Below, piece after piece: positions 21,815 to 42,963 of a DNA stretch of 58,890 nucleotides (its first letter is position 1; every line of letters starts with the position of its first letter). The translations under genes were made by a program, and so were the position numbers. Below the pieces are notes generated by a model. The model was not told where the DNA came from. It did not search any database and was given only the letters and a program-made list of their open reading frames with translations. Source of the DNA: Thermoleophilaceae bacterium (GTDB taxonomy: Bacteria; Actinomycetota; Thermoleophilia; Solirubrobacterales; Thermoleophilaceae); the NCBI GenBank assembly GCA_036389105.1, contig DASVQK010000052.1, positions 1 to 58,890 of the forward strand, written 5' to 3'.

Positions 21815-21836
21815 CTCAGCCCCACGGCGGCGATTC

Positions 21837-24800
21837 CTAGCGTTCGGCGGAGGTGGGCGAGCGGCGGCCCGCCGCCTCCGCGGTGAGCTGAGCGCGGTTG
21901 CGCAATCCGAGCTTCGCATAGATGTGGGAGAGGTGGGTCTTCACGGTCCCGCTGGAGACGAACATCGCCTGCCCGATCTCGGGGTTCGTCAACCCGGTCG
22001 CGACATGACGGGCCACTTCGAGCTCGGTCGGGGTGAGACTCTCCCAGCCGCCTGGCGGGCGCTTGCGCGATCCCCGTGCACGACGGATCCATGCCACCGC
22101 CTCCTCGATGGTGAGCCGTGTCCCTTCGGTCCATGCGGCGTCGAACGCCTCGTCGCCCATCTCGAGGCGCAAATCTCGGGCGATCGCCTCGAACCGCGGC
22201 CGGTCAGGCGCCCAGCGGACGAGCCCGAGGTCGGATCGCGCTCGCTCGGCCGCGCCGAGCAGCCGCGTCGCCTCCTCGTGAGAGGCCAGCCCGGCGGCGA
22301 CCACCGCGAGCGCGTCGAGAGTCTGCGGCAGCCATAGCCGCAGCTGCCTTTCCGCGCGCTGCGCGAGCGCTTCGTGGAGGAGCGCCTCGGCGTGGCTCCA
22401 ATCGCCATGATCAGCCGCGAGCCTGCCCAGTATCTCCTTGCACCAGCTGATGCCGTGCGGCGTGCCAACCCGCTCATTCACCTCGAGCGCTTTGCGCGCC
22501 CAGTCTTCGGCGCCTGCCGCGTCGCCGCCCACACGTAGGACGTCCGCGAGCTGCGCCGTGGCCCATCCGAGTTGGAGGCCGCCGTCCGCGATCGTCGCCG
22601 CGACCGCCTCGAGCCGCGCCCGCGCGCCGTCGAGATCTCCGAGCGCGGCCTCAGCGGTCGCGAGCATGAGCTCCGTCGAGGCGAGGACGAGGCCTGCGCC
22701 AGCCGCTATCGCCCGCTCGCGGCTCGCCTCGAGGCGCGTGAGCGCCTCCGCTGTCCGGCCCTGAGCGAGCTCCACAACCGCTATGTACGTGTCAGTGAAG
22801 CTCTCGGTGCTGGGGTCGCCGATCTCGCGGGTGACCTCGATCGCCCGCCCGGTGAACTCGAAGAACCGCTCGCTGTCCCCCGTCGCCTGGGGCCGAAGCG
22901 CCATGCCGAGCCAGTGCCACCACAGGCGCTCCGGGTAGCCCATACGCTCGACGATCGGGAAGACCTCCTCGAGCAGGGCCTCGCCCTCGTCGTAGTCGGC
23001 GCAGACCAGGTGCCCCCAGGCCATGGTTTGCGTCGTAGTGACGAGCAAGAGATCCTCCCCGCTCGCCCGCAGCAGCTCACGCGCGCGCTTCTGGAGCGGA
23101 CGCACCGCGGCCGGATCCGACGAAATGGTCGCGTTCTTCCCGATGGCCTCGATCGCCCGCCCGATCTCAGCAGGATCGCCAACCTCCTCGGCGACCTCGA
23201 GGGCTTCGTGGGCAACCGCCTTCGCCGCCTCGTATCGTCCGTCGTACGTGAGCAGCAGCGCACGCCCGGAGAGGACCTGCGCGCGCAGCGGGCTCGGCTC
23301 GCCGCCGGCCTTGTCGAGTGCCCGCTCACAGGACGTGACGCGCGCGGCGAAGTGCCCGCGCTGCATCCACCACCAGATGAGCGCAGCGCAGAGTCTCAGC
23401 GCCCGCTCGCTGTCGGTCTCGGTCGCCCATCGAATCGCCGCGGTGAGGTTCGCGCCGTCCTCGTCGAGTGCATCCAGCTGTTGCTGCGCGCTTGGACCCA
23501 GGAGGGCAGGGGCGACCCGCTCCGCGAGCGTGAGGAAGAAGTCGCGGTGGCGGTCGCGCATCGCGTCGAGCTCTTGCGTCTCGCTCAGACGCTCGAGCTC
23601 GTACTCACGCACCATCTCGAGCAGCCGGTAGCGCAGCGCCCTGCCGCGCTCCGCGACGACGACGAGCGACTTGTCGACGAGCGAGGCGAGCACGTCGATG
23701 ATGGCGGCCCGCTCTCGGTCGTCCAGTGCGCACACGCCCTCCGCGGCCTCGAGCGTGAAGCCGCCCACGAAGACACCCAGCCGGCGAAGCAGCACGCGCT
23801 CCTCCTCCGAGAGGAGCGCGTGGCTCCATTCCACGGAGGCGCGCAGCGTACGGTGGCGGGGCAACGCGGTCCTTGTTCCGCCGGTGAGCAGCCGGAAGCG
23901 GTCGGATAGGCCGACGGCGATCTGCTCGACCGACAGCCAGTGGACGCGGGCGGCTGCCAGCTCGATCGCGAGGGGGATCCCGTCCAGCTCAGAGCAGACC
24001 TTGGCGAGCATCGGTGCATGCGCCTCCGCCGCGGTGAAGTCCGGCAGCACCGCAGTCGCGCGCTCGACGAACAACCGCACCGCGTCCGAGTCGGCAAGCG
24101 AATGCAACCGCTCGTCGGTGTCGTCCTCGGGAAGCGACAGCGACGGGACGCGCCACATCGTCTCGGCGGGAAGGTCGAGCGGAGCACGGCTCGTGGCCAA
24201 GATGGTCACATCCGGACAGCCTCTCATCATGGCCTCCGCCGCCTCTGCCGCATCCTCGAGGAGGTGCTCGCAGTTGTCCAGCAGGACCAGCGCCCGTCGC
24301 TCCTTCAGCTGTGCCACCGCCGCCTCGAGTCCGCTCTGGCCGGGAAGCGGCCGTACGCCGACCGCCTCTGAGACCGCCTGGCCCACCATCTCGGTGCCGG
24401 AGACCGGGGCGAGCTCCACCCGCCAGACCCCCCCGGGGAACCAATCGAGCGCGTCGGCCGCCGCTTGCAGCGCAAGGCGGGTCTTGCCGCAGCCACCGGC
24501 CCCGGTCAGCGTGAGTAACCGGGCTTTTCGGAGGACCCCGCCGACCTCGGCCAGCTCGCGCTCGCGACCGACGAAGCTGGTGAGCTCGTACGGAAGGTTG
24601 TTGGGCAACGTGTCGAGCGAGCGCAGCGCGGCACGCGCTTCCGGCTGGTCCCCGTCGGCCAAGCCGTAGACATGCTCAGGCCGGCCCAGGTCGGGCAGCC
24701 TGTGGAAGCCGAGGTCCACCAGCTCCACGCCGTCCGGGACCTGGGCGACGACCAGCTCGCGGGTGGCGCGCGACATCAGGGTCTGGCCGCCGCGAGCGGT

Positions 24801-25202
24801 GGCAGCGAGGCGCGAGCAGCGGCTGAGCACTAGGGCGGCGTGGTTCCGCTCGAGACCGGGCTTCAGCTCGGCCGTGTGCAACGCGATCCGCACGTGCAGG
24901 CCGAGCTCATCCGGCCACTCCCGCCCACGCACGGCGCGCTGCACGTCCAGTGCCGCGCGCAGAGCGTCGGCGGGAGAGCGAAAGGTGGCGACGGCTCCAC
25001 TACCCGCGCCCGCTGTCGCGAGCTCTACGCCGCCCCGCGCCGCCGCCTCCGAGACGATCTCGCGGTGGACGCCTAGGGCCTGTGCCATTGCGTCGGGCGC
25101 GGCGTCCCGAAGACGCACGGCATCCTCGAAGTCGCTGAACAGGAACGTCAGAGTTCCCGCGCGAAGCGCAGGATCTGCACTATCTACCGTGAACCCTGAC
25201 AC
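21837..25202 (-). CDS. Large LuxR-family regulator: degenerate class III cyclase-like domain, NB-ARC/AAA ATPase, TPR-like repeats, C-terminal LuxR HTH
   Basis: GTLTFLFSDFEDAV is cyclase-like. FVGRERELAEV..LTLTGAGGCGKTRLA is a Walker A. The C-terminus LTPTELEVARHVATGLTNPEIGQAMFVSSGTVKTHLSHIYAKLG is a LuxR HTH. The start is provisionally the in-frame GTG 25202. Confidence 0.85.
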   Translation of the reverse strand: MSGFTVDSADPALRAGTLTFLFSDFEDAVRLRDAAPDAMAQALGVHREIVSEAAARGGVELATAGAGSGAVATFRSPADALRAALDVQRAVRGREWPDELGLHVRIALHTAELKPGLERNHAALVLSRCSRLAATARGGQTLMSRATRELVVAQVPDGVELVDLGFHRLPDLGRPEHVYGLADGDQPEARAALRSLDTLPNNLPYELTSFVGRERELAEVGGVLRKARLLTLTGAGGCGKTRLALQAAADALDWFPGGVWRVELAPVSGTEMVGQAVSEAVGVRPLPGQSGLEAAVAQLKERRALVLLDNCEHLLEDAAEAAEAMMRGCPDVTILATSRAPLDLPAETMWRVPSLSLPEDDTDERLHSLADSDAVRLFVERATAVLPDFTAAEAHAPMLAKVCSELDGIPLAIELAAARVHWLSVEQIAVGLSDRFRLLTGGTRTALPRHRTLRASVEWSHALLSEEERVLLRRLGVFVGGFTLEAAEGVCALDDRERAAIIDVLASLVDKSLVVVAERGRALRYRLLEMVREYELERLSETQELDAMRDRHRDFFLTLAERVAPALLGPSAQQQLDALDEDGANLTAAIRWATETDSERALRLCAALIWWWMQRGHFAARVTSCERALDKAGGEPSPLRAQVLSGRALLLTYDGRYEAAKAVAHEALEVAEEVGDPAEIGRAIEAIGKNATISSDPAAVRPLQKRARELLRASGEDLLLVTTTQTMAWGHLVCADYDEGEALLEEVFPIVERMGYPERLWWHWLGMALRPQATGDSERFFEFTGRAIEVTREIGDPSTESFTDTYIAVVELAQGRTAEALTRLEASRERAIAAGAGLVLASTELMLATAEAALGDLDGARARLEAVAATIADGGLQLGWATAQLADVLRVGGDAAGAEDWARKALEVNERVGTPHGISWCKEILGRLAADHGDWSHAEALLHEALAQRAERQLRLWLPQTLDALAVVAAGLASHEEATRLLGAAERARSDLGLVRWAPDRPRFEAIARDLRLEMGDEAFDAAWTEGTRLTIEEAVAWIRRARGSRKRPPGGWESLTPTELEVARHVATGLTNPEIGQAMFVSSGTVKTHLSHIYAKLGLRNRAQLTAEAAGRRSPTSAER

Positions 25203-25283
25203 CGCGATTCCCGTCGACCCGCCTCCCAACCGAACCGCCGGGCGGACAGATCCTCTCACGAATCCCGGATTTCGCGGTAACGC

Positions 25284-25322
25284 GCGGGATACCCGACCTG
25301 AACGGGTCGTGGTCCCGGGACC
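25284..25322. repeat. Possible diverged fourth copy of the GACCTGAA...GGTCCC palindromic repeat
   Basis: Sequence GCGGGATACCCGACCTGAACGGGTCGTGGTCCCGGGACC. The GACCTGAA and GGTCCC blocks have spacing similar to the copies at 36309 and 38123. It contains the 12-nt palindrome GGTCCCGGGACC. Confidence 0.3.
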
Positions 25323-25819
25323 TCCGCAGCTCGGTCTCCGCTGCAGCGGCGAACGTCGTGGACTGATCCCCGTGCATGGGCCCCCCAACCGTACGCCGCA
25401 GCCGTCATCAGAACATCCGCCGATTGGGGGAGATGTCGGGCTCCTGAGGGGGCCGACGCGCGGAGGGTTGGTCGTTGACTCTTCGATTTCACCCTTTTGG
25501 CCGATGTTTCGGCGCCGGGCTGTACCTACCGTCACGCAGGCTGGCAATCGATGGTCCAGATGGCAGTGGCGGACGCAGCCTTGACAATGTGGACGACAGC
25601 CTTTCGATCGACTCAACGCGGTCCACACCCGGGCGCGGAATCCGCTAGACCTGCACTGTGACCGGACGCCGACCTCCGATTCCGCCGGCCGACGGTAGGT
25701 GGTCGCGCAGCTCGAAGGACCTCGCCGGCTGGTGCGATCACCCCACGCGCGAGGGGAGCTATCGCGAGCTTCTCAGAAAGCGGATTCGCGTTCGCTGGAG
25801 GCGCTTCTCCTGGTTGACG

Positions 25820-28075
25820 ATGCGTGCGCTCGTCGAGTCGCTCAATGATCGCATCGCCCACAACGTCCACGACTTGATCTCCCCTCTTCGCAACCGCTGG
25901 GTTGCTCGCCAGCGCGCCTCCGCCGGGGTGTCACGGGACTTCGTGATCACGCGACACTCACACGAAAGCGAGTTCAGCTTCCTCCTGGTTGGCGATACAG
26001 GCGAGCAGGATGCCTCACAGTACGCCGTCGTCGCGCCGCTCCTGAAGCAGGGCGAGAGCACCGCGTTCATGGTCATCTGCAGCGACGTGATCTACCCCGC
26101 GGGCGACGTCAACGAATACGTCAACGGGTTTTACCTCCCATACGAGGGCTACGGGAAACCGATCTACGCTGTGCCGGGCAATCACGACTGGTACGACGGG
26201 CTGAACGGATTCATGTACCACTTTTGTGGGGCCGAGCCGCTGCCTGAGGAGGTCTTCCGATGGAGCGACTTCAAGCTTCGCGAGATCATCGCCCGCGCGA
26301 TATGGCGCAGGCCAAGCCTGCCGAAGCGCGACTGCCTCGAGGGGTGGCGCAGCTCGCGGCCGCCGTGGTCGAACGACCCTCCTGAGGCTCCGCAGACCGG
26401 GCCCTACTTCGTGATCGAGACGAAGTCGCTGACGATCGTCGGCATCGACACCGGCATCACGGGCAACCTCGACCATGAGCAAGGTGAGTGGTTGTTGAGG
26501 GTGTCGAAGCGCCCTGGTGCGAAGATCTTGCTCACAGGCAAGCCGCTGCTAGTCGACGGGGATCACCGGCCGTGCGCTATCGCGTGGAGCGAGGATCGGC
26601 CACCGGCTGGCCGCCCGACGGTCGACGATATCGTGCGCGATCCGGAGCACGAGTACGTCGCCGCAATCGGCGGCAATATCCACAACTATCAGCGCTACTC
26701 GGTCCCGTTCCCACCCTCACGAAGGTTCCCGAACGGGCGGGACTTCGAGTACATCGTCTCCGGCGGGGGCGGGGCGTACCTGAGTGCTACGCACCGGATT
26801 CCCTACGTGGACGTCACGCTCCCCGGATCGGCTTCCGGCACCACAGGCGCGCACTGCCCACGGGTGACGGAGAGCGACTTCTATTGCTACCCGCTCCGCG
26901 GCGACTCGCTTGCCCATTTCAGCAAGCGGTTCGTGCCGAAGATCCGCGGGGTGCTGAGCTGGGCGGTTCCGACGACAGCGGTCGTACTCGCTGGACTCGT
27001 CGGGCGCGTGATCCTGCCCGATGACACCTGGCGCTGGGGGATGCTCGGACTGGCAGTGCTGAGCGGTACGTGCATGCTGGGCTACATGTATTTCGTCAAG
27101 CGAAGACGGCACGGAAAGCTGTTGCAGCGCGGGCTTTGGGTGGGCCTGCTGCTTACCGGTCTCATGAGCGTCGCGCTCTGGGCCGTCGACAACGACGACA
27201 TCTGGCAGTGGACGCTGATCGCGCTATCGGTTCTCCTGCTGCTCATCGGTGCGGCGTGGACCGTCATCAAGGATGCGTCGATGGTCGGGTGGCTCGCCAT
27301 GATGAGCATCGGGGCAGCGGGGCTCACGGCGTTTGCGGTACTGAACGATGTCTCGGACCTGCGCCGCGCGGCCATCGCGGCGGCCGGATTCGTCGTGTTC
27401 GGCCTGCTCCTGCGCCTCGGTTTCTTCATCCGGTTTCAGGCACGCAGCAAGAGCGTGGCTGCGGTCGCGGCAGGCCTCTGGGGTGTCCCTGTGCTGGTGA
27501 TCGGCGCGATGGCGCAACTGTGGGACGGGGAGGTCTGGAGACATGGCATCGCGGCGCTGTGGCAGGGTGATGCTTGGAGGATCGCCATCGCCGAGCTTGC
27601 GCTCCTCGTTCTGGTGGTGGCCGCCTTTCTCAGCGTTTATCTACTCGTGTTGGTCAGGGTGTGGCCCGTCCTTGTGCCACCGCGGGGCCGGAAGTCCGAG
27701 CTCGACGCCGACGAGGCGGCGAAGATCATGCACGAGCGCATGGTGAGCCAAGCGCGGGAACGCGGCTGCGCTCCGCCCTCCCCGGTCAGGCCGTCGGCGG
27801 CGGACGCGCAGATCGACAACTGGACGGAGGCCGTCGCCCGAGTCCTGCTGCCGCGCCCCGGAGGGCGGTGGCTGGTTGGCAAGCTACGCCACTCCCAGTC
27901 GCTGGTCTCGGACATCTCCTCGAGCGACGAACCACCGATGTTCAAGAACTTCCTACGCTTGGACGTCACGCCGGACGATCTCACTGTCAAGACCTACGGC
28001 GTGACCGGCTGGAGCGACCACGAGCAGAATCCGCCACGCGAGGACTGCGTGCGGATCAAGCTCCGGGAGCAGTAA
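25820..28075 (+). CDS. Metallophosphoesterase (purple-acid-phosphatase-like motifs) interrupted by an 8-helix membrane module
   Basis: Phosphoesterase motifs: LLVGDTGEQD, SDVIYPAGD, VPGNHDWY, GGNIHNYQRY. About 8 hydrophobic helices follow. A C-terminal beta-strand segment FLRLDVTPDDLTVKTYGVTG closes the protein. The start could instead be GTG 25658 in the same frame. Confidence 0.8.
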   Translation: MRALVESLNDRIAHNVHDLISPLRNRWVARQRASAGVSRDFVITRHSHESEFSFLLVGDTGEQDASQYAVVAPLLKQGESTAFMVICSDVIYPAGDVNEYVNGFYLPYEGYGKPIYAVPGNHDWYDGLNGFMYHFCGAEPLPEEVFRWSDFKLREIIARAIWRRPSLPKRDCLEGWRSSRPPWSNDPPEAPQTGPYFVIETKSLTIVGIDTGITGNLDHEQGEWLLRVSKRPGAKILLTGKPLLVDGDHRPCAIAWSEDRPPAGRPTVDDIVRDPEHEYVAAIGGNIHNYQRYSVPFPPSRRFPNGRDFEYIVSGGGGAYLSATHRIPYVDVTLPGSASGTTGAHCPRVTESDFYCYPLRGDSLAHFSKRFVPKIRGVLSWAVPTTAVVLAGLVGRVILPDDTWRWGMLGLAVLSGTCMLGYMYFVKRRRHGKLLQRGLWVGLLLTGLMSVALWAVDNDDIWQWTLIALSVLLLLIGAAWTVIKDASMVGWLAMMSIGAAGLTAFAVLNDVSDLRRAAIAAAGFVVFGLLLRLGFFIRFQARSKSVAAVAAGLWGVPVLVIGAMAQLWDGEVWRHGIAALWQGDAWRIAIAELALLVLVVAAFLSVYLLVLVRVWPVLVPPRGRKSELDADEAAKIMHERMVSQARERGCAPPSPVRPSAADAQIDNWTEAVARVLLPRPGGRWLVGKLRHSQSLVSDISSSDEPPMFKNFLRLDVTPDDLTVKTYGVTGWSDHEQNPPREDCVRIKLREQ

Positions 28076-28302
28076 GCCCGACCTAACGGGACTTCGAGCA
28101 ATCTCCTCCAGTGACCGATGTTTCTCCCCCGTTCGGCAGATGTTTTCGCCGTGGGCGGGATGTACCGTGGCGAAAGCGGGGGGCGATTGAGCGACTCGGT
28201 GCACGAGGAGGGATCCGTACGGGAACTCCAGAGCGAAGCGCGCGACCCCTGACTGCGGTTATGGACGAGGGTCGCCGTGCCCCCGCGCGACCTCGCGTAA
28301 CC

Positions 28303-29043
28303 ATGACGAGCGTGGCATGGTCCGCGCCGAACGACCTCGATTTGACCGAGTGGCTCAGGCAGGGACACCGCATAGGGATGATGGGACGCAGCGCCGGGTG
28401 GTGGATCGGCGACTGGCTCCGGTTCGGGAACGCGAGGTACGGCGAGAAGTACACGCGAGCGAGGCAGATCACCGGCTACGACGTCCAGACGCTGATGAAC
28501 ATGGTCTGGGTCGCGTCGCAAATCGATGTCTCTCGACGTCGAGAGGATCTCTCGTGGAGCCACCACATGGAGGTGGTGGCGGAGGACCTCCCGACGCAGG
28601 AGCGGCTGCTCAACAAGGCGGCGGCTGAACGCTTGTCCGTGCGCGCCCTCCGCAAGCTCATACGACTCGAGCGCAATGCCGACCCCGACGGGGACGGGGT
28701 GAGTCAGCCGCCGCCCGGTGGGCGCGTCGTGTGCCCGCGGTTCGCGGACGCGCGGCGGGAGGGCGCGCAGCTCACCGTGGACGAGGCCGTCACCTGGACT
28801 CGACGCGGACGCGGATCGCGCAAGCGTCCTTCCGATGGCTGGGAGAGCCTGACTCCCGCTGAGCTCGAGGTGGCTCGCCAAGCGGCGGGCGGCTTGACAA
28901 ACCTGCAGATCGCAACGGCCACGTTCACCTCGCCCTCCACCGTGAAGACCCACATGTCGCACATATACGCCAAGCTCGGCGTGCACAACCGCGCCCAGCT
29001 CACGGCTGAGGCGATCCGCCACCTCCCGCCCGGTCAACCGTAA
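28303..29043 (+). CDS. Chimeric regulator: LmbU-like N-terminal domain fused to a LuxR-type HTH
   Basis: GWWIGDWLRFGNARYGEKY..YDVQTLMNMVWVA..SRRREDLSWSHHMEVV..LSVRALRKLI matches my recollection of the LmbU-family pattern. The C-terminus SLTPAELEVARQAAGGLTNLQIA..STVKTHMSHIYAKLG is a LuxR HTH. Start is ATG 28303 or ATG 28261. Confidence 0.7.
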   Translation: MTSVAWSAPNDLDLTEWLRQGHRIGMMGRSAGWWIGDWLRFGNARYGEKYTRARQITGYDVQTLMNMVWVASQIDVSRRREDLSWSHHMEVVAEDLPTQERLLNKAAAERLSVRALRKLIRLERNADPDGDGVSQPPPGGRVVCPRFADARREGAQLTVDEAVTWTRRGRGSRKRPSDGWESLTPAELEVARQAAGGLTNLQIATATFTSPSTVKTHMSHIYAKLGVHNRAQLTAEAIRHLPPGQP

Positions 29044-29098
29044 CCGCGCAGCTGCTGTCGATACACCCCGCCGGCGGACGACGAAGGCTGACTGCCTC

Positions 29099-30934
29099 CT
29101 AGCCCTTCACGTTCACCGAGCAGTCAGCGGTCAGAGCAAGCCCGTCGTGGCCGATCGTGACGAGGTGAAGCCCTGGGCGGGTCCCCTTCGGAATCGGCAC
29201 TCTGACACTGCCCGCGCCGCTGGCGTCCGTCTTCCCACGCGCCACCTCCTCGGGTCCCAGTAGGGCGTGTACCCCGGCGTTCGGTCGCAGCCCGTCGAAG
29301 GCCACGTCCACCGCCTGACCTGCGGCCGCGTCGCCGGCGGGGAAGCAGTGCGGGAATGGCGGCGACTCGAGCTCGAAGGTGGCGCCGCGGTCGCTCCTGC
29401 GGATCGCGTCGACGGCCTTCCCTCTGGCGATCAACGGCGTCTGGACCCTGAACGGGACCCTCGGCCTGACCGCCGTCGGCAAGCCGCGGTTCCTGACCGT
29501 GAAGGCGATCGTGTTGTAGACCTCGGCCACGAAGTCCCGCGGCGGCTTTACTCCCTCCACCGGGATGAAGTGAGGATGCATCCGGAGGGTTTGGATCTCG
29601 ACGTCGAAGCGCTTGGATGAGATCGCCTTCAGCACGCCGCGGGTGGCTATCCACGCGCTCCCGATCACCCGGCAGGTCCTCGATCGGAGGCGGCGGACTC
29701 CTCCGATCACCGTCGCTCGGCCCACGAAGTCCGCGCCTCGGAAGGCGGAGGGAAGCCCACGCTCGAGGAGCGCGTCCTTCCGTGCACCGGTCGTGGTGTT
29801 GTTGTCGAGATCGGCGAGGAACCCGTACCGCGTAACGCTGCGCCGGCTGCACGGCAGGAGCCCACCCAACTGCTGGGCGATGTGCAGCTCGTTCCGCCTT
29901 CGATCGAGAGCGACCGTGACCGACGCGATGTCGCGGTAGGGCCGGAGCCTCTTGTTCCGGTTGCCGTCGACGAGGCGCATCGAGAGCACCCGTCCGGGAA
30001 CGAAGTCGCCCGGTGGGTCGGTCTCCAGGCCCGGGACGTTCGCGGCGTTCGACCGTAGGGCCGTTACCTCCGTGGCGTTCAAGCCGATGTTGTCGATCCG
30101 CCCGTCACCGTTGCTGTCGAATGACGACGACCTCATCAGCGCCGCGTCGTTGGCGCGGTGCTCGAGGCTCAGCGCGTGACCGATCTCGTGCCCCGAGACC
30201 TGGTCGAACGGGTCCGTGACGGCGAACCGCCGGTTCCCCATGGGATCCGCGGGCGAGGGTGGCCACGTGCGGTCGACCACCGTGGGATAGAGATAGTGGT
30301 TGTCGACGACCATGATTCGCCCGTCGTACGGCGTTGCGCAGTTGCCCGTCGAGTTCTCCGCGCATCCACCCCAGCCGCCGATCGCCACGTAGTCGAATTG
30401 CGTGTTGCCGTCGGGGGCGGCCGGGTTCGCATTGTCGTGGAAGAGGTTCACGTTCACGGCCGTGACGCCAACGCCGGCGCGGCCGAGCGCCGTGTACGCC
30501 TCGTCACAGTCGGTGATGAGGTCTCGGAACTCGGTTGAGTCTACGTTCACGTTCCAACCGTTCACGTCGCCCGCCTGGCCGTTGGTCGTGTCGGTGTCGT
30601 CGAGGTGCGGGAAGTTGAACGCCCCCATCGCGTTGTTGATCGCCGATCGCAGCGAGATCGTCGCCTGCGGGAGGAAGATGTTGTCGGTGGGCCGCTCGTG
30701 CCGCCTCCAGATCACGGCATCGGTGTTGGTGTCGGTTACGCCGCTTCCCTCGCTCGTGATGTTTGGTGCCGCCTGGGCCGGGCTTCCGTTTACGACGCAC
30801 CAGGCCATCGGCACGTGGAGGACGTCCGTTCCACCCGGCACGACGGCCGAGGCTTGATGCGTCAGCGCTACCCCAATGGCGATCGTTGCCAGGGCGGCCA
30901 CGATCACCCTCGCGCGCGTAACCACTGGTTTCAT
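29099..30934 (-). CDS. Secreted metzincin-type zinc metalloprotease with about 340-aa C-terminal region
   Basis: ATG 30934 follows GGGAGGGG. Signal peptide MKPVVTRARVIVAALATIAIGVALTHQASA. Zinc motif HEIGHALSLEH (HExxHxxxxxH) is followed by AALMRS, a possible Met-turn. Confidence 0.8.
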   Translation of the reverse strand: MKPVVTRARVIVAALATIAIGVALTHQASAVVPGGTDVLHVPMAWCVVNGSPAQAAPNITSEGSGVTDTNTDAVIWRRHERPTDNIFLPQATISLRSAINNAMGAFNFPHLDDTDTTNGQAGDVNGWNVNVDSTEFRDLITDCDEAYTALGRAGVGVTAVNVNLFHDNANPAAPDGNTQFDYVAIGGWGGCAENSTGNCATPYDGRIMVVDNHYLYPTVVDRTWPPSPADPMGNRRFAVTDPFDQVSGHEIGHALSLEHRANDAALMRSSSFDSNGDGRIDNIGLNATEVTALRSNAANVPGLETDPPGDFVPGRVLSMRLVDGNRNKRLRPYRDIASVTVALDRRRNELHIAQQLGGLLPCSRRSVTRYGFLADLDNNTTTGARKDALLERGLPSAFRGADFVGRATVIGGVRRLRSRTCRVIGSAWIATRGVLKAISSKRFDVEIQTLRMHPHFIPVEGVKPPRDFVAEVYNTIAFTVRNRGLPTAVRPRVPFRVQTPLIARGKAVDAIRRSDRGATFELESPPFPHCFPAGDAAAGQAVDVAFDGLRPNAGVHALLGPEEVARGKTDASGAGSVRVPIPKGTRPGLHLVTIGHDGLALTADCSVNVKG

Positions 30935-31488
30935 CGCCCCTCCCACTCTCGGGCGCCGATGGTGGGGTCGAGAGGAGTTCCCGACCCACCTGTTGCACTT
31001 TATGCCGCGACGGGAAGATGGCGCGCAAACAGGCGGAAGTCAACCCCCCAAAGCGGGGGCCCACTGCACCGCAGCTGAACTATCGACGCAGCACGATCCG
31101 CTTGTCGAGACCCATGGCCCGCAGTCGCGGCCTCCAAGCCGCAGGCTGCGACCGTTCGCGGAAACGCCCACCGCAAATATCCCCCATGTGGTCGATTGTT
31201 CGGTTGGCCCAAACTGAATACGGTCGTCCTCCAGCCTTGCGCCGGCGAGTCCGGGGCAGGCCTCTTACCGGAGGGACCCTTGACTCAGGATTCACAGGAG
31301 CCGGCGCCCCGCGCGATCCCTCCGCTGGTGGCGCGCACAGATCGAAGCCGCCATCCCATGAGCGCTACCGCGAGCTAAAGCGCAGCTCGTCTTGACTGAT
31401 CCGACCCAGGCAACCGTGCTGCACGAGGCACGACGTCGGCTGCCCCCACCATCCCAACCTGGTCGCTCGACAAGGAGGAGCCAGTGAC

Positions 31489-31845
31489 ATGTCGCTTCTG
31501 ATCGTCAATGCCGCGTCGGAGGACACAATCGCGGGCCCCGGCAACCGCAGCCCCAACTACGTCGTCGTTTCGGTCACCGACTCCGTTGGCACACCCGTGA
31601 CCGGGCTCGTGCAGAGGGACTTCCAGGTCCAGCCCATACTCAGGGCGCCGGGCGGAACGCTGGTTAACATCGAGAAGTTCGCGGAGTCGGGGGCCGGGCT
31701 TCCGGGCTACTACATCCTCTATCTGGTACCGGTCATGACCGATGTTCAGACCGGTACGTGGAAGGCTGGGACCTACGTGTTCGGCGTCTCCGTCACGCGC
31801 GGCACGGACAGGGGCCAGAACCTCGCGTCCGTCCTGATGGACTGA
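31489..31845 (+). CDS. Small leaderless beta-rich protein, function unknown
   Basis: ATG 31489 follows the strong SD AAGGAGGAG. The 118-aa protein has no signal peptide. Its hydrophobic/polar alternation looks Ig-like (YVVVSVTD, YILYLVPV, YVFGVSVT). Confidence 0.7.
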   Translation: MSLLIVNAASEDTIAGPGNRSPNYVVVSVTDSVGTPVTGLVQRDFQVQPILRAPGGTLVNIEKFAESGAGLPGYYILYLVPVMTDVQTGTWKAGTYVFGVSVTRGTDRGQNLASVLMD

Positions 31846-31863
31846 TTTGCAGCGGCTCCAGAG

Positions 31864-31904
31864 AATGGCGAGTGCCGGAATCGAGCGCTGACTGAAAAAT
31901 CGTG
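31864..31904 (-). other. Rearranged tRNA-Phe-derived scar
   Basis: 31864-31884 AATGGCGAGTGCCGGAATCGA matches the antisense 3' end of tRNA-Phe at 20/21 positions. 31890-31904 GACTGAAAAATCGTG resembles the Phe anticodon arm but in the opposite orientation, with one extra A. Confidence 0.6.
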
Positions 31905-31915
31905 CGGCTGAGCGG

Positions 31916-33766
31916 CTAGGGCAGCCGGTACGTCCGCCGGCGGCCGTTCTTCAGCCACGAGAGAACCGAGCCGTTCAGCCGCAGCGACGCGGGGTCGATG
32001 CCGCGGCCGCGGTCGACCACCTTCTTCGCGCGTGTGTATGCGTCGGCGACCCAGACGCGGTCCCGCGAGCCGGGATGCACGCAGGTCGGCTCCCGCTCGT
32101 TCGAGAACGATCCGTCCTCCGGGCAGGTGATGAAGCCGAGCGCGCCATCGCGCCGCAGGCGAAGGCTTCCAACCTTCACCGTGTCCGACGTCGACTCCTG
32201 GACGATCAGCCCGCCGTTGCGGGCCGAGGACTGGTCGCGGAGATCGGTGACATCGACGATCGTCGCGCACGTCTCGATGTCGCAGCTTTCGAAGGCGGAC
32301 CCGACCAACGGGCCCGCGATCGACACGGCCGGTCCGTCGTACACGCCGTCGCCGACGCCGAGCTCGATCGGGACCCCGCGCGCGTAGAGGCAGCCGTAGG
32401 CGTAGCCGCGGTTCCATCCGCGCACCACCTCATACACGCGCACCCGCTTGGTCTTGACGAGCCTGCGCGTCTTCTTCGGCGAGCACGCGCTCGGCGGTGC
32501 CTCCCTGATCCAGGCCCTCCGCCGTGCAAGCGTGATCGCCGGGCCCGCGCCCTCCGCGCCGAACGAGCGCAGCCGCTCGAGCGCGCGCTCGCCGTTCGAC
32601 TCCTCCCAGCCCGTCGTAGCGCGGCCGGTCCCGTCGAGGATCAGCCCGGTGGAGCGGACGACGTCGACGAAGGGCGCAGCTTCGAACAGATCGAACGGGC
32701 CGCCGACACGACCGTCCGCGCTCCGGTAGGCGCCCCGGATCGCACGGCCCTCGCTCCAGACGAAGGCAGCGTCGCCGTTCGGGCCGAGCGCGGCGGTCGC
32801 GTCGCCCGGGGAGCCGCTGGCGCCCCCGTTCTGGATCGTGGTGCGCTCGAACTCGCCGCCGAACCGTCGGATCGCGGCGCGCAGCCGGTACGGCTTGCCC
32901 GACACCCAGGTGATCATCGCGGCCCCGTCGTCCTTCAGGCTCACCGTGCGGACATAGGCAGTGCCCTCGCCAGGCTGCGTCGCCGCCAACGGCGCTCCGA
33001 AGGCACTGCCCGGTGGGCGCTCGCTGACCAGGAGGCCGGTGGGGGAGGTCCAGGTGACCAGCGCGCCACCCGGGCCGTTGACGGCGAGGTCGAAGCTCTG
33101 CGTGTCCTCCTCCGGCGCCGAGAGCGTCTGGGCGGGGCCGAACGTCTCGTCGGGGGCCCGTGTGGCCGCCATGACCTTCGACTTGCCGTCGAAGGCGCGC
33201 CAGACGACGGTCGCGGTCCCGTCGTCGGCGAGCCCGACGTCGTAGCCGCCGTAAATGACCCGGTTGCCCGCCGGCTCGAACGCGAACGACGGGGTGAACT
33301 CGCCGCCCGCAGGGCGGAACGCCATCCGGATCCCGCCGCGCAGGCCGGCCAGCTCGGGTCCCCAGATCGCGACGGCGTCGCCGCGTACGTTGACGGCGAC
33401 GCGCGGGCGCCCGACCCGCACCTTGTGCGAGAGGGTGACGCGCGGCCCGAAGTCGCCGCCGGCGGGGCGGAAGGAGGCCAGGAGCGCGTCGGATCCCGAG
33501 TGCCCGACGGCGACGGCGTCGCCTCCACTCCCCATGGCCGCCTGGCTGAACGTGGCGCCGAGCGCGGGCAGCAGAGCCGGCGGGCCGAACTGGCCGGAAC
33601 CGGTGCGCGCTGAGACCTCAGTCGGGCGCGGGTAGTGCTCGCGAGCCTTGAAGAACAGGAGCGCGTCGCCGCGGTCGTTTCCCACCAGCGCCATGGCCGA
33701 CGCCGCACTCGGGCAGGCCAGCACGGCGAGCGCGATCAAGACTGCGATTGAGCTGGCGCGGCGCAT
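31916..33766 (-). CDS. Secreted repeat protein (beta-propeller-like repeats ending in W), function unknown
   Basis: Signal peptide MRRASSIAVLIALAVLACPSAASA. Recurring motifs: AVAIWG, ATVVWRAF, ALVTWTS, AMITWVS, AAFVWSE. It resembles the 5322-6593 protein in style. Confidence 0.8.
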   Translation of the reverse strand: MRRASSIAVLIALAVLACPSAASAMALVGNDRGDALLFFKAREHYPRPTEVSARTGSGQFGPPALLPALGATFSQAAMGSGGDAVAVGHSGSDALLASFRPAGGDFGPRVTLSHKVRVGRPRVAVNVRGDAVAIWGPELAGLRGGIRMAFRPAGGEFTPSFAFEPAGNRVIYGGYDVGLADDGTATVVWRAFDGKSKVMAATRAPDETFGPAQTLSAPEEDTQSFDLAVNGPGGALVTWTSPTGLLVSERPPGSAFGAPLAATQPGEGTAYVRTVSLKDDGAAMITWVSGKPYRLRAAIRRFGGEFERTTIQNGGASGSPGDATAALGPNGDAAFVWSEGRAIRGAYRSADGRVGGPFDLFEAAPFVDVVRSTGLILDGTGRATTGWEESNGERALERLRSFGAEGAGPAITLARRRAWIREAPPSACSPKKTRRLVKTKRVRVYEVVRGWNRGYAYGCLYARGVPIELGVGDGVYDGPAVSIAGPLVGSAFESCDIETCATIVDVTDLRDQSSARNGGLIVQESTSDTVKVGSLRLRRDGALGFITCPEDGSFSNEREPTCVHPGSRDRVWVADAYTRAKKVVDRGRGIDPASLRLNGSVLSWLKNGRRRTYRLP

Positions 33767-33853
33767 CCCTCGCTGTCCCGCTAACCCCGAACCTGACCGT
33801 CCGTTGCGGATAAGCGGGGCTCGCCCACCGTCCGATAGGCGCCCGCCCGCCTC

Positions 33854-34825
33854 CTAGGGCAGGTACGGCCAGCCGCTCGCGCTCCAACCCATGTAGTTTA
33901 TCCCCAGGAAGGACGTGTAGTTAAAGCGCCGGTCGTAGTAGTGGTAGACGAGCAGGTCGGAGTCGTCCGCCGGGTCGTACACGGGGTTCGGGCCGCCCGG
34001 TCCCGCGTAGTCGCCGTGCGGCGCGAGGACGGTCTTCCCGCCGCCCGAGAGCATGCCGGTCCCCGCGTCGTCCACGTACGGGCCCGTCGGCGAGGTGGAG
34101 CGCCCGACCCGGATGCGCTGGGTCGGCGGGCTGGCTCCGAGGAGCGGCGGGCAGCAACTCCCGTACGCCGCGAAGAGGTAGTAGTAGCCGTCGTGGTAGT
34201 AGAGGGCGGGCGCGGTGATCGCGCCGTCGGTGGCGGTGGCCACCTTCACGGGCGACACGCCGCTCTTCACCTTCCCGGTGGACGGGTCGAGCTCGACCAC
34301 GTGCACGCCGCGCGAGACGTTGCCGAAGGTGAGCCACCAGCGGCCGCTCGGGTCCACGAGCAGGTCCGGGTCGATCGCGTTGTACGCCGACCCGGAGTTC
34401 GAGTCGATCACCATCCCCCGGTCGACCCAGCTTCGCGGCTCGGCCGTCGCGCTCGTCGCCAGGCCGATGGCCATGGTCGACCCGGTGGTCGTGGCGGCGG
34501 TGTAGTACATCCAGTAGCGGCCGTCGCGGAACGTGACCTCCGGCGCCCACATGTCGCCGTTGCCGTAGGGGCGGGTCCACTCGGGGACCGGCTGAAGCGG
34601 GCCCTCGAGGCTGATCCACGCCGTGCGGTCGGTCGAGATGCGCGCCTGGTTGTGGGTCGAGAAGAGCATGTACCGCGGTGTGACCCCGCGAGCGACGAGC
34701 GACGGGTCGTGAACCGGGGCGTCGCCCACGGCGAGGCGCGGGTTCGGGTACTGCGCGGCCGCCGGCGCCGCGGCGGCGAGCGCGGCCAAGACGGCGAGCG
34801 CCGACATCGCCCCGCGCCGGCTCAT
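33854..34825 (-). CDS. Secreted glycoside hydrolase family 43 (arabinanase-like)
   Basis: Signal peptide followed by VHDPSLV, MWAPEV..DGRYWMYY, NAIDPDLLVD..GRWWLTFG, APALYYHDGYYYLF. This is the GH43 five-bladed propeller pattern. Confidence 0.85.
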   Translation of the reverse strand: MSRRGAMSALAVLAALAAAAPAAAQYPNPRLAVGDAPVHDPSLVARGVTPRYMLFSTHNQARISTDRTAWISLEGPLQPVPEWTRPYGNGDMWAPEVTFRDGRYWMYYTAATTTGSTMAIGLATSATAEPRSWVDRGMVIDSNSGSAYNAIDPDLLVDPSGRWWLTFGNVSRGVHVVELDPSTGKVKSGVSPVKVATATDGAITAPALYYHDGYYYLFAAYGSCCPPLLGASPPTQRIRVGRSTSPTGPYVDDAGTGMLSGGGKTVLAPHGDYAGPGGPNPVYDPADDSDLLVYHYYDRRFNYTSFLGINYMGWSASGWPYLP

Positions 34826-35799: not shown

Positions 35800-35925
35800 G
35801 ACGGCGGGTATACCATGGCTCGCTCGCTGGAGCGATCACACGGCAAGAGGCTTCTCCGTGAGGAGCTCGGGCACGAACGGGAGCGCCAGCGCTACTTCAC
35901 GGAGGTCGTGACCAACCGCACCACT

Positions 35926-36075
35926 TAGTGGGTGCCGTGGAGGGGCGCGGCGGTGCCAACCGCGCGATGCCCCCCCACAAACCGGCCGTCCCACTGGATC
36001 GCGACGCCGCCGGTCCCGTCCGACTTGCCGAAGTCGGTCACCAGCTTGGTCGGAGTCGTCGTGAGCGGTTTGGGA
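35926..36075 (-). pseudogene. C-terminal gene remnant abutting palindromic repeat copy A
   Basis: The reverse frame reads ..TPTKLVTDFGKSDGTGGVAIQWDGRFVGGHRAVGTAAPLHGTH and then stops. The upstream part is replaced by the repeat at 36067 and the tRNA scar at 36160. Confidence 0.3.
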
Positions 36076-36108
36076 CCAGAAACTTCAGTTTGGTCCCAAA
36101 CGGGCGCC
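36067..36108. repeat. Palindromic repeat copy A
   Basis: An 11-bp stem: GTTTGGGACCA (36068-36078) pairs with TGGTCCCAAAC (36091-36101). The tail ACGGGCGCC is shared with copies B and C. Confidence 0.75.
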
Positions 36109-36159
36109 TACACCCAGCGCCGATCGCCCGCAAAACACCACCATATGCAGGAGTTCTGT

Positions 36160-36204
36160 AAATGGCGAGGGCCGGAATCGAACCGGCGACAGCACGATTT
36201 TCAG
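36160..36204 (-). repeat. attR-like duplicate of the tRNA-Phe 3' half (45 bp)
   Basis: AAATGGCGAGGGCCGGAATCGAACCGGCGACAGCACGATTTTCAG is identical to 42888-42932 at 44/45 positions (G vs C at one site). Homology ends inside the anticodon loop. Confidence 0.9.
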
Positions 36205-36212
36205 GGACACGC

Positions 36213-38501: not shown

Positions 38502-38624
38502 CTGCGCTTGGACGTCACGCCGGACTACCTGACGATCAACGCCTAGCGCGTGACCGGCTGGCGTTACGACGAGAAGAATCCGCCGCGCGAGGGCTGCGTG
38601 CGGATCAAGCTCCGGGAACAGTAA
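38502..38624 (+). pseudogene. Remnant copy of the 3' end of the membrane phosphoesterase gene
   Basis: It is 105/123 nt identical to 27953-28075 by manual codon-by-codon count. It reads LRLDVTPDYLTINA*RVTGWRYDEKNPPREGCVRIKLREQ*, with an in-frame TAG at 38544-38546. Confidence 0.85.
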
Positions 38625-38738
38625 GTAGCCCTTGGCGGACTCAAAAATAGTCCGTCCGGGAGATGTTCTGCGAGATCGCATGGCCTAGCGTCGCTGATGC
38701 CCACCACGCCGATCGGCGTATGTCAATAAGGAGGAAGC

Positions 38739-42162: not shown

Positions 42163-42175
42163 AGCCTGGTCGATG

Positions 42176-42890: not shown

Positions 42891-42963
42891 TGGCGAGGGC
42901 CGGAATCGAACCGGCGACACCACGATTTTCAGTCGTGTGCTCTACCAACTGAGCTACCTCGCC
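42891..42963 (-). tRNA. tRNA-Phe (anticodon GAA)
   Basis: GGCGAGG-TA-GCTC-AGTTGGTA-GAGC-A-CACGA-CTGAAAA-TCGTG-GTGTC-GCCGG-TTCGATT-CCGGC-CCTCGCC-A folds as a full 73-nt cloverleaf. CCA is not encoded. Confidence 0.95.

What the first reader, a model, noticed from the sequence alone, without database searches (positions are those of the whole stretch)
25203..31904. Candidate undescribed module: membrane-split phosphoesterase, chimeric regulator, secreted metzincin and small beta-rich protein
- This 6.7-kb block is visibly more A/T-rich than its surroundings.
- Its intergenic regions are unusually long (about 450-620 nt before the phosphoesterase, about 550 nt between the divergent protease and small ORF).
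- On the left there is a possible copy of the palindromic repeat (25284-25322). On the right there is a tRNA-Phe-derived scar (31864-31904).
- None of the four genes has an obvious housekeeping role, and two have architectures I have not seen described.
- They could be independent cargo genes.
- Alternatively they could form a regulated envelope or extracellular module, with a regulator, a membrane enzyme and a secreted protease with a possible partner.
Basis: inference. Interest (0 to 1): 0.65.

Follow-up and report, generated by a model that had tools for sequence, protein, structure and literature searches.

The report
Mosaic variable region beside tRNA-Phe islands
The four genes are real and were described correctly, but they were joined by deletions, a gene fusion and island insertions next to a tRNA-Phe integration site in a soil actinobacterium, so this is an ordinary flexible genome region and not a new functional module.

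Summary
The gene descriptions hold.
- 25658/25820-28075 is a purple-acid-phosphatase-like metallophosphoesterase (PE) whose fold is interrupted by about eight membrane helices.
- 28303-29043 is a true chimera: an LmbU-like domain fused at residue 146/147 to the last 100 residues of a large LuxR regulator.
- 29099-30934 is a secreted metzincin.
- 31489-31845 is a stand-alone Ig-like protein.

The block has the lowest G+C in the contig (0.662 against 0.704), and a tRNA-Phe scar is present.

The module reading fails.
- Relatives share abhydrolase, GMC oxidoreductase, big LuxR, small LuxR and PE, and synteny stops at the PE stop codon.
- The other three genes are absent from those relatives.
- Eight other protease loci, four other small-protein contexts, three PE contexts and one LmbU-like context share no neighbours. 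The single exception is one distant protease plus small-protein pairing.

Both "long intergenic regions" contain gene remnants: a truncated small luxR gene, and the last 18 codons of a GH19 gene that precedes the small gene in its closest relative. The "palindromic repeat copy" is a deletion junction. The polarity of the scar puts its island on the right, where a second scar and the tRNA-Phe gene lie.

Verdict: a recombination-built mosaic of independently derived genes. Interest is low to moderate.

The parts
21837..25088 (-). Large LuxR-family regulator (HTH_77/AAA, TPR, GerE; 1083 aa as called). It is part of the conserved backbone.
   Evidence: Pfam; gene call and Pfam in L001; 93% nt collinear with L004/L005.
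25291..25377 (-). Remnant (first ~29 codons) of a small LuxR-family gene. The deletion junction at 25291/25293 removed the HTH-encoding part.
   Evidence: 20 of 29 residues identical to the N-terminus of the 129-aa gene of L007. The window lacks L007 316-669.
25658..28075 (+). Metallophosphoesterase (PE): a purple-acid-phosphatase-like domain interrupted by about 8 TM helices. It is 805 aa from GTG 25658, or 751 aa from the called ATG 25820.
   Evidence: Pfam Metallophos 28.2 bits. Split alignment to the 508-aa P0104. 8 hydrophobic segments. AF2 model pTM 0.79. Best PDB matches are purple acid phosphatases, E 2e-5. Orthologs at 89% and 79% in the same backbone.
28303..29043 (+). Chimeric regulator (246 aa). 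The LmbU-like domain (aa 1-146) is fused near nt 28741 to the C-terminal ~100 aa (linker plus GerE HTH) of a large LuxR-type regulator.
29099..30934 (-). Secreted metzincin-family metalloprotease (611 aa) with a signal peptide, the motif HEIGHALSLEH, a Met-turn, and a ~300-aa C-terminal region of unknown fold.
30935..31342 (.). Non-coding stretch upstream of the protease gene. It has no homology to L011 or L026 and contains one CGCCGGCG at 31240.
   Evidence: Flat GC3; no Rfam hit.
31343..31395 (+). Remnant of the 3' end (last 18 codons, ...ERYRELKRSSS*) of a GH19-family gene that is intact upstream of the small gene in L011.
   Evidence: 87% nt over 77 nt with L011 861-937, and 10 of 11 residues identical.
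31489..31845 (+). Stand-alone Ig-like protein (118 aa). It belongs to a 112-aa family that is 52-70% identical across several phyla.
   Evidence: 90% nt identity to L011.
31846..31884 (-). tRNA-Phe attachment-site scar: the 3' end of the tRNA plus ~18 nt of its downstream flank. It is truncated on the island (right-hand) side.
36160..36204 (-). Second, better-preserved tRNA-Phe scar (45 nt, 98%), followed by the conserved element arm GGAYRCGC.
38502..38625 (+). Orphan 3' fragment of a phosphoesterase gene with an in-frame stop. It is a direct repeat of 27953-28076.
42891..42963 (-). Intact tRNA-Phe (GAA) gene, the integration target that anchors the island array.
   Evidence: ARAGORN; Rfam tRNA 75.9 bits.

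Best explanation
The block is not one unit. It is a junction zone on the chromosomal side of a tRNA-Phe integration hot spot in a soil or biocrust Thermoleophilia-like actinobacterium. It is built from at least three segments with separate histories.

Segment A (18369-28075) is a conserved backbone: abhydrolase, GMC oxidoreductase, big LuxR regulator, small LuxR regulator (here reduced to 29 codons by a ~354-nt deletion) and the membrane-split phosphoesterase.

Segment B (28076 to about 31342) is lineage-specific. It carries a regulator created by gene fusion and a secreted metzincin.

Segment C (31343-31845) is the tail of a GH19 gene plus a stand-alone Ig-like gene. It is shared with another genome, where it also lies on the flank side of tRNA-Phe scars.

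To the right follow scar 2, a 4.3-kb island, scar 1, a 6.7-kb decayed island and the tRNA-Phe gene.

Shown: the synteny breaks, the remnants, the fusion point, the scars and their polarity, and the absence of conserved co-occurrence.

Inferred: repeated site-specific integration at tRNA-Phe, followed by illegitimate recombination and deletion, juxtaposed these genes. The four products probably act independently:
- a cytoplasm-facing, membrane-anchored PAP-like phosphoesterase, ancestrally paired with a divergent small LuxR regulator;
- a DNA-binding fusion regulator;
- an extracellular zinc protease;
- an Ig-like binding protein.
For: Assembly is sound. Two independent assemblies are 100% identical to the window across the block, and depth is uniform at about 9x in run X1.

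Segment A. L004/L005 are collinear with window 18369-25217 (93% nt) and 25298-28069 (88.5%). L007 is collinear to 28063. Homology stops at the phosphoesterase stop codon, and three relatives carry three different genes after it. The small luxR remnant and deletion are shown.

Fusion regulator. Stand-alone LmbU-like proteins align to residues 1-146/162, including '...VVCPR' of their CPxCG motif. The tails of large LuxR regulators align from residue 147. Among the best 150 of 1.84 billion representatives, none covers both halves.

Protease. Eight other loci (L008-L010, L026-L030) share no neighbour family with the window, except one small-protein homolog in L027.

Small gene. It is 90% nt identical in L011, where it is preceded by an intact GH19 gene whose last 18 codons survive in the window. 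Its other contexts are unrelated.

Scars. There are copies at 31846-31884 and 36160-36204. In scar 1 and in both L011 copies the element-derived arm (GGAYRCGC) lies on the right side. Scar 2 has lost that arm, and its orientation follows from its shared tRNA 3' end and left-hand flank. The islands therefore lie to the right of each scar.

No integrase or other mobility gene lies in 25.2-31.9 kb.

Composition. The tetranucleotide signature is typical. The G+C dip of the phosphoesterase is shared by its ortholog.
Against: Sampling of neighbourhoods is small: 3 phosphoesterase, 8 protease, 4 small-protein and 1 LmbU-like context. Several of the contigs are short.

One distant genome (L027) does place a signal-peptide-bearing homolog of the small protein 440 nt upstream of a protease homolog. 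That is unlikely to be pure chance.

A second strain (run X4, about 95% nt) keeps the phosphoesterase-to-regulator junction and has protease fragments. Segment B is therefore stably linked to the phosphoesterase within this species-level group.

The whole block has uniformly lower G+C and lower GC3 than its flanks.

No expression data exist, so co-regulation is untested.
Confidence: 0.75

Rival explanations
1. Two-gene pair. The secreted metzincin and the Ig-like protein are functional partners, for example a protease with a cognate inhibitor, immunity protein, folding helper or substrate-binding protein. This would be analogous to serralysin and its Inh inhibitor. The pair would be transcribed divergently from the shared 555-nt region, possibly under the neighbouring fusion regulator.
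For: L027 has a 140-aa, signal-peptide-bearing homolog of the small protein (hmmsearch E 4e-13, BLASTP E 3e-8) lying 440 nt upstream of a 54%-identical protease homolog. It is the only recurrent neighbour family among the nine protease loci. Elsewhere the small protein sits 38 nt upstream of a papain-like peptidase (L014/L015) and 37 nt downstream of a GH19 hydrolase (L011). One LmbU-type box, CGCCGGCG, lies in the shared region at 31240.
Against: Seven of the eight other protease loci have no homolog of the small protein within 4 kb at hmmsearch E<=1, although some of those contigs are short. The closest small-gene relative (90% nt) is paired with GH19, and the window still holds the tail of that GH19 gene between the two genes, so their adjacency here is secondary. 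The orientation differs between the two cases: divergent here, co-directional in L027. The window protein and most family members lack a signal peptide, while the protease is secreted. The fold is generic Ig-like, and no known inhibitor appears among the top 50 PDB matches. CGCCGGCG occurs 37 times in the window.
Confidence: 0.12
2. All four genes form one regulated envelope or extracellular system: a regulator, a membrane enzyme and a secreted protease with its partner, acquired together as an island.
For: The genes are contiguous and share lower G+C and GC3. The phosphoesterase-regulator junction and protease fragments are also present in a second strain. A regulator lies between an enzyme gene and a protease gene.
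Against: The phosphoesterase is syntenic with the left flank in relatives that lack the other three genes. There is no co-occurrence in any other context examined. Neither proposed boundary holds. Gene remnants at two of the junctions show secondary juxtaposition. No mobility genes are present.
Confidence: 0.04
3. Alternative origin. Either 28077-38501 (10.4 kb) is one insertion into the 3' end of the phosphoesterase gene, flanked by 124-nt imperfect direct repeats of that 3' end (27953-28076 and 38502-38625). Or segment B is the remnant of an oldest, third tRNA-Phe island whose outer scar was lost.
For: The direct repeat is 85% identical and in the same orientation. Both copies end in ...REQ* followed by TAAG, whereas the orthologs in L004 and L007 diverge from about 28063-28069. 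Synteny with relatives ends exactly there. Islands are arrayed in tandem at this tRNA.
Against: No integrase or recombinase lies in the interval. The interval contains two tRNA-Phe scars of its own, so it cannot be a single simple element. The fragment is equally distant (85-88%) from the phosphoesterase genes of the window, L004 and L007. No third tRNA scar was found left of 31846.
Confidence: 0.15

Closest known systems
Tandem genomic islands (islets) accreted at a tRNA gene, with decayed attachment-site scars
   Same: There is an intact tRNA-Phe gene plus two direct partial copies of its 3' end (45 nt and 21-39 nt), with a conserved element arm beside the copies. The intervening segments carry accessory genes. 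Remnants and pseudogene fragments sit at the junctions. A related genome (L011) has the same type of scars.
   Different: The block in question lies outside the array, on the flank side of the outermost scar. No integrase survives anywhere in 25-43 kb. Part of the block, the phosphoesterase, is conserved backbone.
LmbU-family cluster-situated regulators of actinomycetes (PMC6510168)
   Same: The N-terminal 146 residues match NF038070 (E 1e-33). They are 55-63% identical to stand-alone LmbU-like proteins, one of which sits next to fatty-acid/polyketide-type genes.
   Different: The score (116.6 bits) is below the curated cut-off (125). The C-terminal CPxCG-containing part is replaced by the linker and GerE HTH of a large LuxR regulator. 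No such fusion appears among the best 150 hits from 1.84 billion representative proteins. No biosynthetic cluster is adjacent.
Matrixin/serralysin-type metzincins (MEROPS M10), and the serralysin-Inh protease/inhibitor gene pair
   Same: The HExxHxx(G/S)xxH zinc motif with a conserved Met-turn aligns to MMP catalytic domains. The protein has a signal peptide. One family member carries RTX (HemolysinCabind) repeats like the serralysins and has a small secreted beta-protein gene upstream.
   Different: Only about 30 residues around the zinc site are recognisably M10, and the Pfam score is below threshold. The N-terminal 240 and C-terminal 300 residues are family-specific. The small protein has an Ig-like sandwich fold, and no known protease inhibitor appears among its top 50 PDB matches. 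It mostly lacks a signal peptide, and it is absent from most protease loci.
Purple acid phosphatase-like metallophosphoesterases, and membrane-anchored YkuE-type metallophosphoesterases (PMC5449189)
   Same: The catalytic domain carries the metallophosphoesterase motifs GDxG, GNHD and GxxH. Its best structural matches are the mammalian purple acid phosphatases. It is a polytopic membrane protein, like the long YkuE variants.
   Different: Here about 8 TM helices are inserted inside the domain, before its last beta-strands, and there is no signal or Tat motif at the N-terminus. In the YkuE variants, 4 TM helices precede an exported domain. The family is large, with more than 2,000 hits that occur with or without the insert. 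No source lists it other than as 'calcineurin-like phosphoesterase', 'metallophosphoesterase', 'MFS family permease', an O-acetylase or 'hypothetical protein'.

Membership tests
tRNA-targeting genomic island (applied to the block 25203-31904) | Flanked on both sides by direct repeats derived from the tRNA 3' end (att sites), with the element between them | tested here: not met
   There is only one scar, at the right end (31846-31884). No further copy lies to the left. In scar 1 and in both L011 copies the element arm lies to the right of the scar. Scar 2 is truncated on that side but has the same orientation. The proposed left repeat is a deletion junction.
tRNA-targeting genomic island (applied to the block 25203-31904) | Integrase or other mobility gene | tested here: not met
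   No integrase or recombinase domain was found in the four proteins, nor in any called gene of 11.5-41.8 kb.
tRNA-targeting genomic island (applied to the block 25203-31904) | Atypical composition relative to the host genome | tested here: inconclusive
   G+C is the lowest in the contig (0.662, about 1.9 sd below the mean), but the tetranucleotide signature is typical (r 0.91-0.92). The phosphoesterase ortholog shows the same dip in a relative.
tRNA-targeting genomic island (applied to the block 25203-31904) | Present or absent as a unit among close relatives | tested here: not met
   The phosphoesterase is retained in L004/L005/L007 with the same left flank, while the regulator, protease and small gene are absent. 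The small gene occurs alone with GH19 in L011.
Conserved functional gene module or operon | Homologs of the member genes recur as neighbours in other genomes | tested here: not met
   Across 3 phosphoesterase, 8 protease, 4 small-protein and 1 LmbU-like context, the only recurrence is the small-protein homolog next to a protease in L027.
Conserved functional gene module or operon | Co-transcription or co-regulation | not testable with these tools
   No RNA run holds the sequence. The genes lie on both strands, with 228-555-nt gaps.
Metzincin (M10-like) metalloprotease | HExxHxxGxxH zinc-binding motif plus a conserved Met-turn | tested here: met
   The window has HEIGHALSLEH (G replaced by S). 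H249, E250 and M267 are invariant, and H253 and H259 nearly invariant, in 32 sequences. The profile matches MMP zinc sites at E 1e-4.
Metzincin (M10-like) metalloprotease | Pfam Peptidase_M10 at the gathering threshold | tested here: not met
   17.4 bits against a cut-off of 24. Only profile positions 108-134 are matched.
LmbU-family transcription factor | Full-length match to NF038070 at the curated cut-off | tested here: not met
   116.6 bits against a cut-off of 125. Profile positions 5-128 of 171 are matched, and the C-terminal part is replaced.
LuxR/GerE-type HTH regulator | GerE helix-turn-helix domain | tested here: met
   PF00196 scores 58.3 bits against a cut-off of 23.5. The last ~91 residues are 69% identical to the C-terminus of the neighbouring big LuxR regulator.
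Calcineurin-like metallophosphoesterase, PAP-like | Metallophos domain and fold | tested here: met
   PF00149 scores 28.2 bits against a cut-off of 21.5. The AF2 model (pTM 0.79) best matches purple acid phosphatases, E 2e-5, TM 0.47-0.49 normalised on the target.
Serralysin-Inh type protease/inhibitor pair | A small exported inhibitor with a known inhibitor fold, encoded consistently beside the protease gene | tested here: not met
   The window protein has no signal peptide. Its fold is generic Ig-like, with no known protease inhibitor among the top 50 PDB matches. It is adjacent to a protease homolog in 1 of 8 other loci. Inhibition itself cannot be tested here.

The most novel reading that the evidence does not exclude
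The metzincin family and the Ig-like protein family form an undescribed protease/partner system (inhibitor, immunity protein or exported-enzyme helper). It would have been retained in two very distant genomes and, in this lineage, placed next to a newly fused LmbU-LuxR regulator. Independently of that, the phosphoesterase would represent a large uncharacterised class of PAP-like enzymes whose fold is split by an eight-helix membrane domain.
Probability: 0.12. Interest if true: 0.5.

Novelty: new member of a known kind. Interest (0 to 1): 0.25.

Why it matters
It shows how a compositionally distinct run of odd-looking genes can be read as a module when it is in fact a recombination scrapyard. 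Two "long intergenic regions" turn out to be gene remnants. A "repeat" turns out to be a deletion junction. A tRNA scar turns out to face the other way.

The by-products are modestly useful:
- a precisely mapped natural gene fusion that created a regulator with two DNA-binding modules;
- a cross-phylum family of uncharacterised secreted metzincins;
- a very conserved stand-alone Ig-like protein that tends to sit beside hydrolase genes;
- a populous family of membrane-split PAP-like phosphoesterases in Thermoleophilia.

All four are untested experimentally.

Tried and rejected
- Rfam scan of 24-44 kb: only the tRNA reached threshold.
- Promoter and terminator scan of the block: counts no higher than in shuffles.
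- PADLOC and PHROGs on the four proteins and their neighbours: only generic HTH, metallophosphoesterase and SSB hits, so there is no defence or phage signature.
- PDB sequence searches: nothing for the small protein or the phosphoesterase; only the zinc-site stretch for the protease.
- RNA folds of the regulator/protease gap and of the scar: z-scores near 0.
- LmbU box CGCCGGCG: 37 copies in the window, so the single copy in the protease/small-gene gap is uninformative.
- Genome-collection scan with the regulator: only one true LmbU-like relative, which is stand-alone.
- RNA-seq search: no runs.
- An early BLAST against loci failed because locus files are batched. It was repeated correctly.
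- The idea that the chimeric regulator is a frame artefact or pseudogene was rejected. Both halves have GC3 0.84-0.86 in one frame, and the upstream extension has GC3 0.55.
- The idea that the assembly is chimeric was rejected.

Full report
SOURCE AND RELIABILITY
The window is a metagenome contig (JGI 3300034377, Ga0334931_000089). Two independent assemblies (ENA ERZ27253120 and Logan SRR10953302) are 100% identical to it over 21489-34855 and 27922-32691. A soil run covers 24.0-42.9 kb at a uniform depth of about 9x. The arrangement is therefore real. Named homologs come from Solirubrobacterales and Thermoleophilaceae MAGs. G+C is 0.70. The DNA runs that hold the sequence are soil and biocrust metagenomes.

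THE FOUR GENES
(1) Phosphoesterase (PE).
- It was called from ATG 25820 (751 aa). GTG 25658 (805 aa) is the more likely start. Homologs carry 50-70 extra N-terminal residues, and the 160 nt upstream are conserved with L007 without stops or indels.
- Pfam Metallophos passes threshold.
- The 508-aa homolog P0104 aligns to residues 4-395 and again to 627-749, skipping about 230 hydrophobic residues. These form about eight predicted helices.
An even helix number and the absence of a signal peptide put both halves in the cytoplasm (inference).
- The AF2 model (pTM 0.79) gives the three C-terminal strands pLDDT above 90. The best PDB matches are mammalian purple acid phosphatases (E 2e-5).
- The family is large: at least 2,272 hits among the 8,000 candidates scored, occurring both with and without the insert.

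(2) Regulator (28303-29043, 246 aa).
- GC3 is 0.86 in the LmbU part and 0.84 in the GerE part. The 28111-28302 extension has GC3 0.55, so ATG 28303 is the start.
- Residues 1-146 are LmbU-like (NF038070, E 1e-33, just under the curated cut-off).
- Stand-alone homologs of 140-270 aa continue with a CPxCG motif. The window protein keeps only "VVCPR".
- From residue 147 ("FADAR...") it matches the last ~100 residues of large STAND-type LuxR regulators. Identity is 69% to the neighbouring big LuxR (73% nt over 262 nt) and 60% to L004's second big regulator.
- In a search of 1.84 billion representative proteins, each of the best 150 hits matched one half only. This is a lineage-specific gene fusion with a mappable junction near nt 28741.

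(3) Protease (29099-30934).
- It has a signal peptide and the motif HEIGHALSLEH...M.
- In 32 homologs, H249, E250 and M267 are invariant and H253 and H259 nearly so.
- The profile matches MMP zinc sites (E 1e-4).
- The family has at least 139 members at 39-63% identity and full length. They come from Thermoleophilaceae, Chloroflexota, Acidobacteriota and Proteobacteria MAGs, and all are annotated as hypothetical.

(4) Small protein (31489-31845).
- The family has at least 145 members, nearly all of 112 aa and 52-70% identical across Acidobacteriota, Nitrospiraceae, Chloroflexota, Bacteroidota, Chlorobiaceae and cyanobacteria.
- The model (pLDDT 80.8) is a seven-stranded Ig-like sandwich. It matches titin Ig, PKD and invasin domains only weakly. 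A few members give weak Invasin_D3 or Big_1 hits.

COMPOSITION
- The block has the lowest G+C of any 6.7-kb window (0.662 against a mean of 0.701, sd 0.021). Its base-normalised tetranucleotide signature is among the most typical in the contig.
- GC3 is 0.83-0.87 against 0.92-0.97 in the flanks.
- The PE ortholog in L004 shows the same dip (0.675 against 0.721). The small gene in L011 does too (0.641 against 0.686).
- The low G+C therefore travels with individual genes. It does not define one acquired unit.

BOUNDARIES AND JUNCTIONS
Left side.
- L004/L005 (PE 89% identical) are collinear with window 18369-25217 (93% nt) and 25298-28069 (88.5%). L007 (PE 79%) matches 24977-25291, 25293-25435 and 25653-28063.
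- Between the big LuxR gene and PE these relatives carry a small LuxR gene (129 aa, or 218 aa with an internal duplication in L004).
- The window lacks L007 positions 316-669. Only the first ~29 codons survive at 25291-25377, with 20 of 29 residues identical.
The genuine palindromic repeat GGGACC(N14-15)GGTCCC occurs only at 36072, 36314 and 38128.

After PE.
- Homology with all relatives stops within 6-12 nt of the PE stop codon.
- The next gene differs in each: an NB-ARC/TPR/LuxR regulator in L004/L005, an unrelated gene in L007, and the chimeric regulator here.
- A roughly 95%-identical strain in run X4 keeps the PE-to-regulator junction, with a 79-nt insert, and has protease fragments. Segment B is therefore shared at about species level only.

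Between the protease and the small gene.
- The window matches L011 over 31343-31418 (87%) and 31477-31845 (90%).
- In L011 this corresponds to the last 18 codons of an intact GH19 gene, a short spacer and the small gene. Nothing else matches.
- So the small gene was formerly preceded by GH19. The protease was brought next to it by a rearrangement whose breakpoint is near 31343.
- The remaining 30935-31342 has no coding signal.

Right side.
- tRNA-Phe is at 42891-42963 on the minus strand.
- Partial copies of its 3' end lie at 36160-36204 (45 nt, 98%) and 31864-31884 (20 of 21, E 2.5e-4).
- The alignment of these copies with two further copies in L011 (1868-1920 and 4347-4371) shows two things. 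About 20 nt of conserved tRNA-downstream flank lie on the left of the copies that keep the tRNA 3' end (the two window scars and L011 1868-1920). A conserved non-tRNA arm (GGAYRCGC) lies on the right of three of the copies.
- This is the structure expected for the distal attachment site of an element lying to the right, towards the tRNA gene.
- The order is therefore: flank, scar 2, a 4.3-kb island (a 616-aa secreted protein and two GH43 genes), scar 1, a 6.7-kb decayed island (a secreted HExxH protein, DUF4430, HARE-HTH, an SSB-like gene and small membrane proteins), then tRNA-Phe. No integrase is present in any called gene of this interval.
It is not the end of an island extending leftwards.
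- In both the window and L011, the GH19 gene (or its remnant) and the small gene lie on the flank side of the scars. They may be the ancestral downstream neighbours of tRNA-Phe in this clade (inference).

CO-OCCURRENCE TEST
- PE contexts: L004/L005 and L007 share the backbone. L006 (45% identity) is unrelated.
- Protease contexts: L008, L009, L010, L026, L027, L028, L029 and L030.
- Small-protein contexts: L011 (GH19), L012/L013 (Uma2 and LpxC) and L014/L015 (a papain-like peptidase 38 nt downstream).
- LmbU-like context: L016, stand-alone and next to fatty-acid/polyketide-type genes.
- An all-against-all comparison of ORFs within 4 kb of the nine protease genes found one meaningful shared family. 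This is the small protein's homolog in L027: 140 aa, with a signal peptide, 440 nt upstream on the same strand (hmmsearch E 4e-13).
- That single recurrence keeps a two-gene "protease plus partner" hypothesis alive at low probability. By a rough estimate, one hit in eight loci would be expected by chance about 2-3% of the time if a genome has one such gene (inference).
- Several facts argue against even that pair being an inherited unit here: the GH19 remnant between the two genes, the different orientation in L027, the missing signal peptide, and the seven other loci without a homolog.
- Nothing links PE or the regulator to the others beyond adjacency.

CONCLUSION
The block is a junction zone made of a conserved backbone (including PE), a species-level segment (fusion regulator plus metzincin) and a tRNA-Phe-flank segment (GH19 remnant plus Ig-like gene). 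Four recombination footprints are visible: the small-luxR deletion, the regulator fusion, the GH19 truncation and an orphan PE 3' fragment at 38502-38625.

The most likely functional reading is four independent products. The only ancestral regulatory pairing supported by synteny is small LuxR with PE, and that pairing has been destroyed in this genome.

The finding is an ordinary flexible region containing several uncharacterised but individually unremarkable families. Its most unusual element is the unique LmbU-LuxR fusion.

Noticed in passing
window 38502-38625 (compare 27953-28076): An orphan 124-nt copy (85%) of the 3' end of the phosphoesterase gene, with an in-frame stop. It lies inside the tRNA-proximal island. 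It shares the terminal ...REQ* plus TAAG with the window's gene, but is equally distant (85-88%) from the orthologs in L004 and L007. The two copies are direct repeats 10.5 kb apart.
   Followed up: partly
window 36160-36204 and 31885-42890: A second, well-preserved tRNA-Phe scar. It defines two tandem decayed islands without an integrase. The first (31885-36159) carries a 616-aa secreted protein and two paralogous GH43 genes. The second (36205-42890) carries a 393-aa secreted HELFH zinc-protease-like protein, DUF4430, HARE-HTH, an SSB-like gene and small membrane proteins. It has G+C 0.666 and the most atypical tetranucleotide signature in the window.
   Followed up: partly
window 36067-36097, 36309-36340, 38123-38154: A short palindromic repeat family, GGGTTTGGGACC(N14-15)GGTCCC. 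It is found only around scar 1 and inside the tRNA-proximal island: 3 matches against 0.45 expected.
   Followed up: partly
L011 1868-1920 and 4347-4371: A related genome has the same kind of tRNA-Phe 3'-end scars with the same element arm (GGAYRCGC). They lie next to genes with tail-fibre-like (Collar/Gp10_C), Big_7 and NIDO domains. One family of tRNA-Phe-targeting elements appears to be active across this clade.
   Followed up: partly
L014/L015 6001-7282; L011 168-1307; L027 2774-5918: The highly conserved 112-aa Ig-like protein family (52-70% identity across at least six phyla, all unannotated) lies directly beside a hydrolase gene in four of five contexts: a metzincin twice, a papain-like C1 peptidase, and GH19. 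A few members carry signal peptides.
   Followed up: partly
L004 9174-9830: In L004 the small LuxR gene carries an internal tandem duplication (218 aa instead of 129 aa in L005 and L007). The same small gene is therefore independently rearranged in another strain.
   Followed up: no
window 803-847: A 45-nt stretch inside the LigD primase-polymerase ORF resembles the T-arm part of the tRNA-Phe scar (18 nt at 94%, E 0.016). ARAGORN finds no tRNA there, so it is probably chance.
   Followed up: no
window 4296-4895 (-): A protein with a Peptidase inhibitor I36 (SMPI-like metalloprotease inhibitor) domain is encoded 25 kb from the metzincin. No link to it was examined.
   Followed up: no
window 28079-28085 (run X4 contig): A roughly 95%-identical strain in a 2024 metagenome has 79 nt in place of 5 nt immediately after the phosphoesterase stop codon. 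This is further indel activity at the synteny breakpoint.
   Followed up: no
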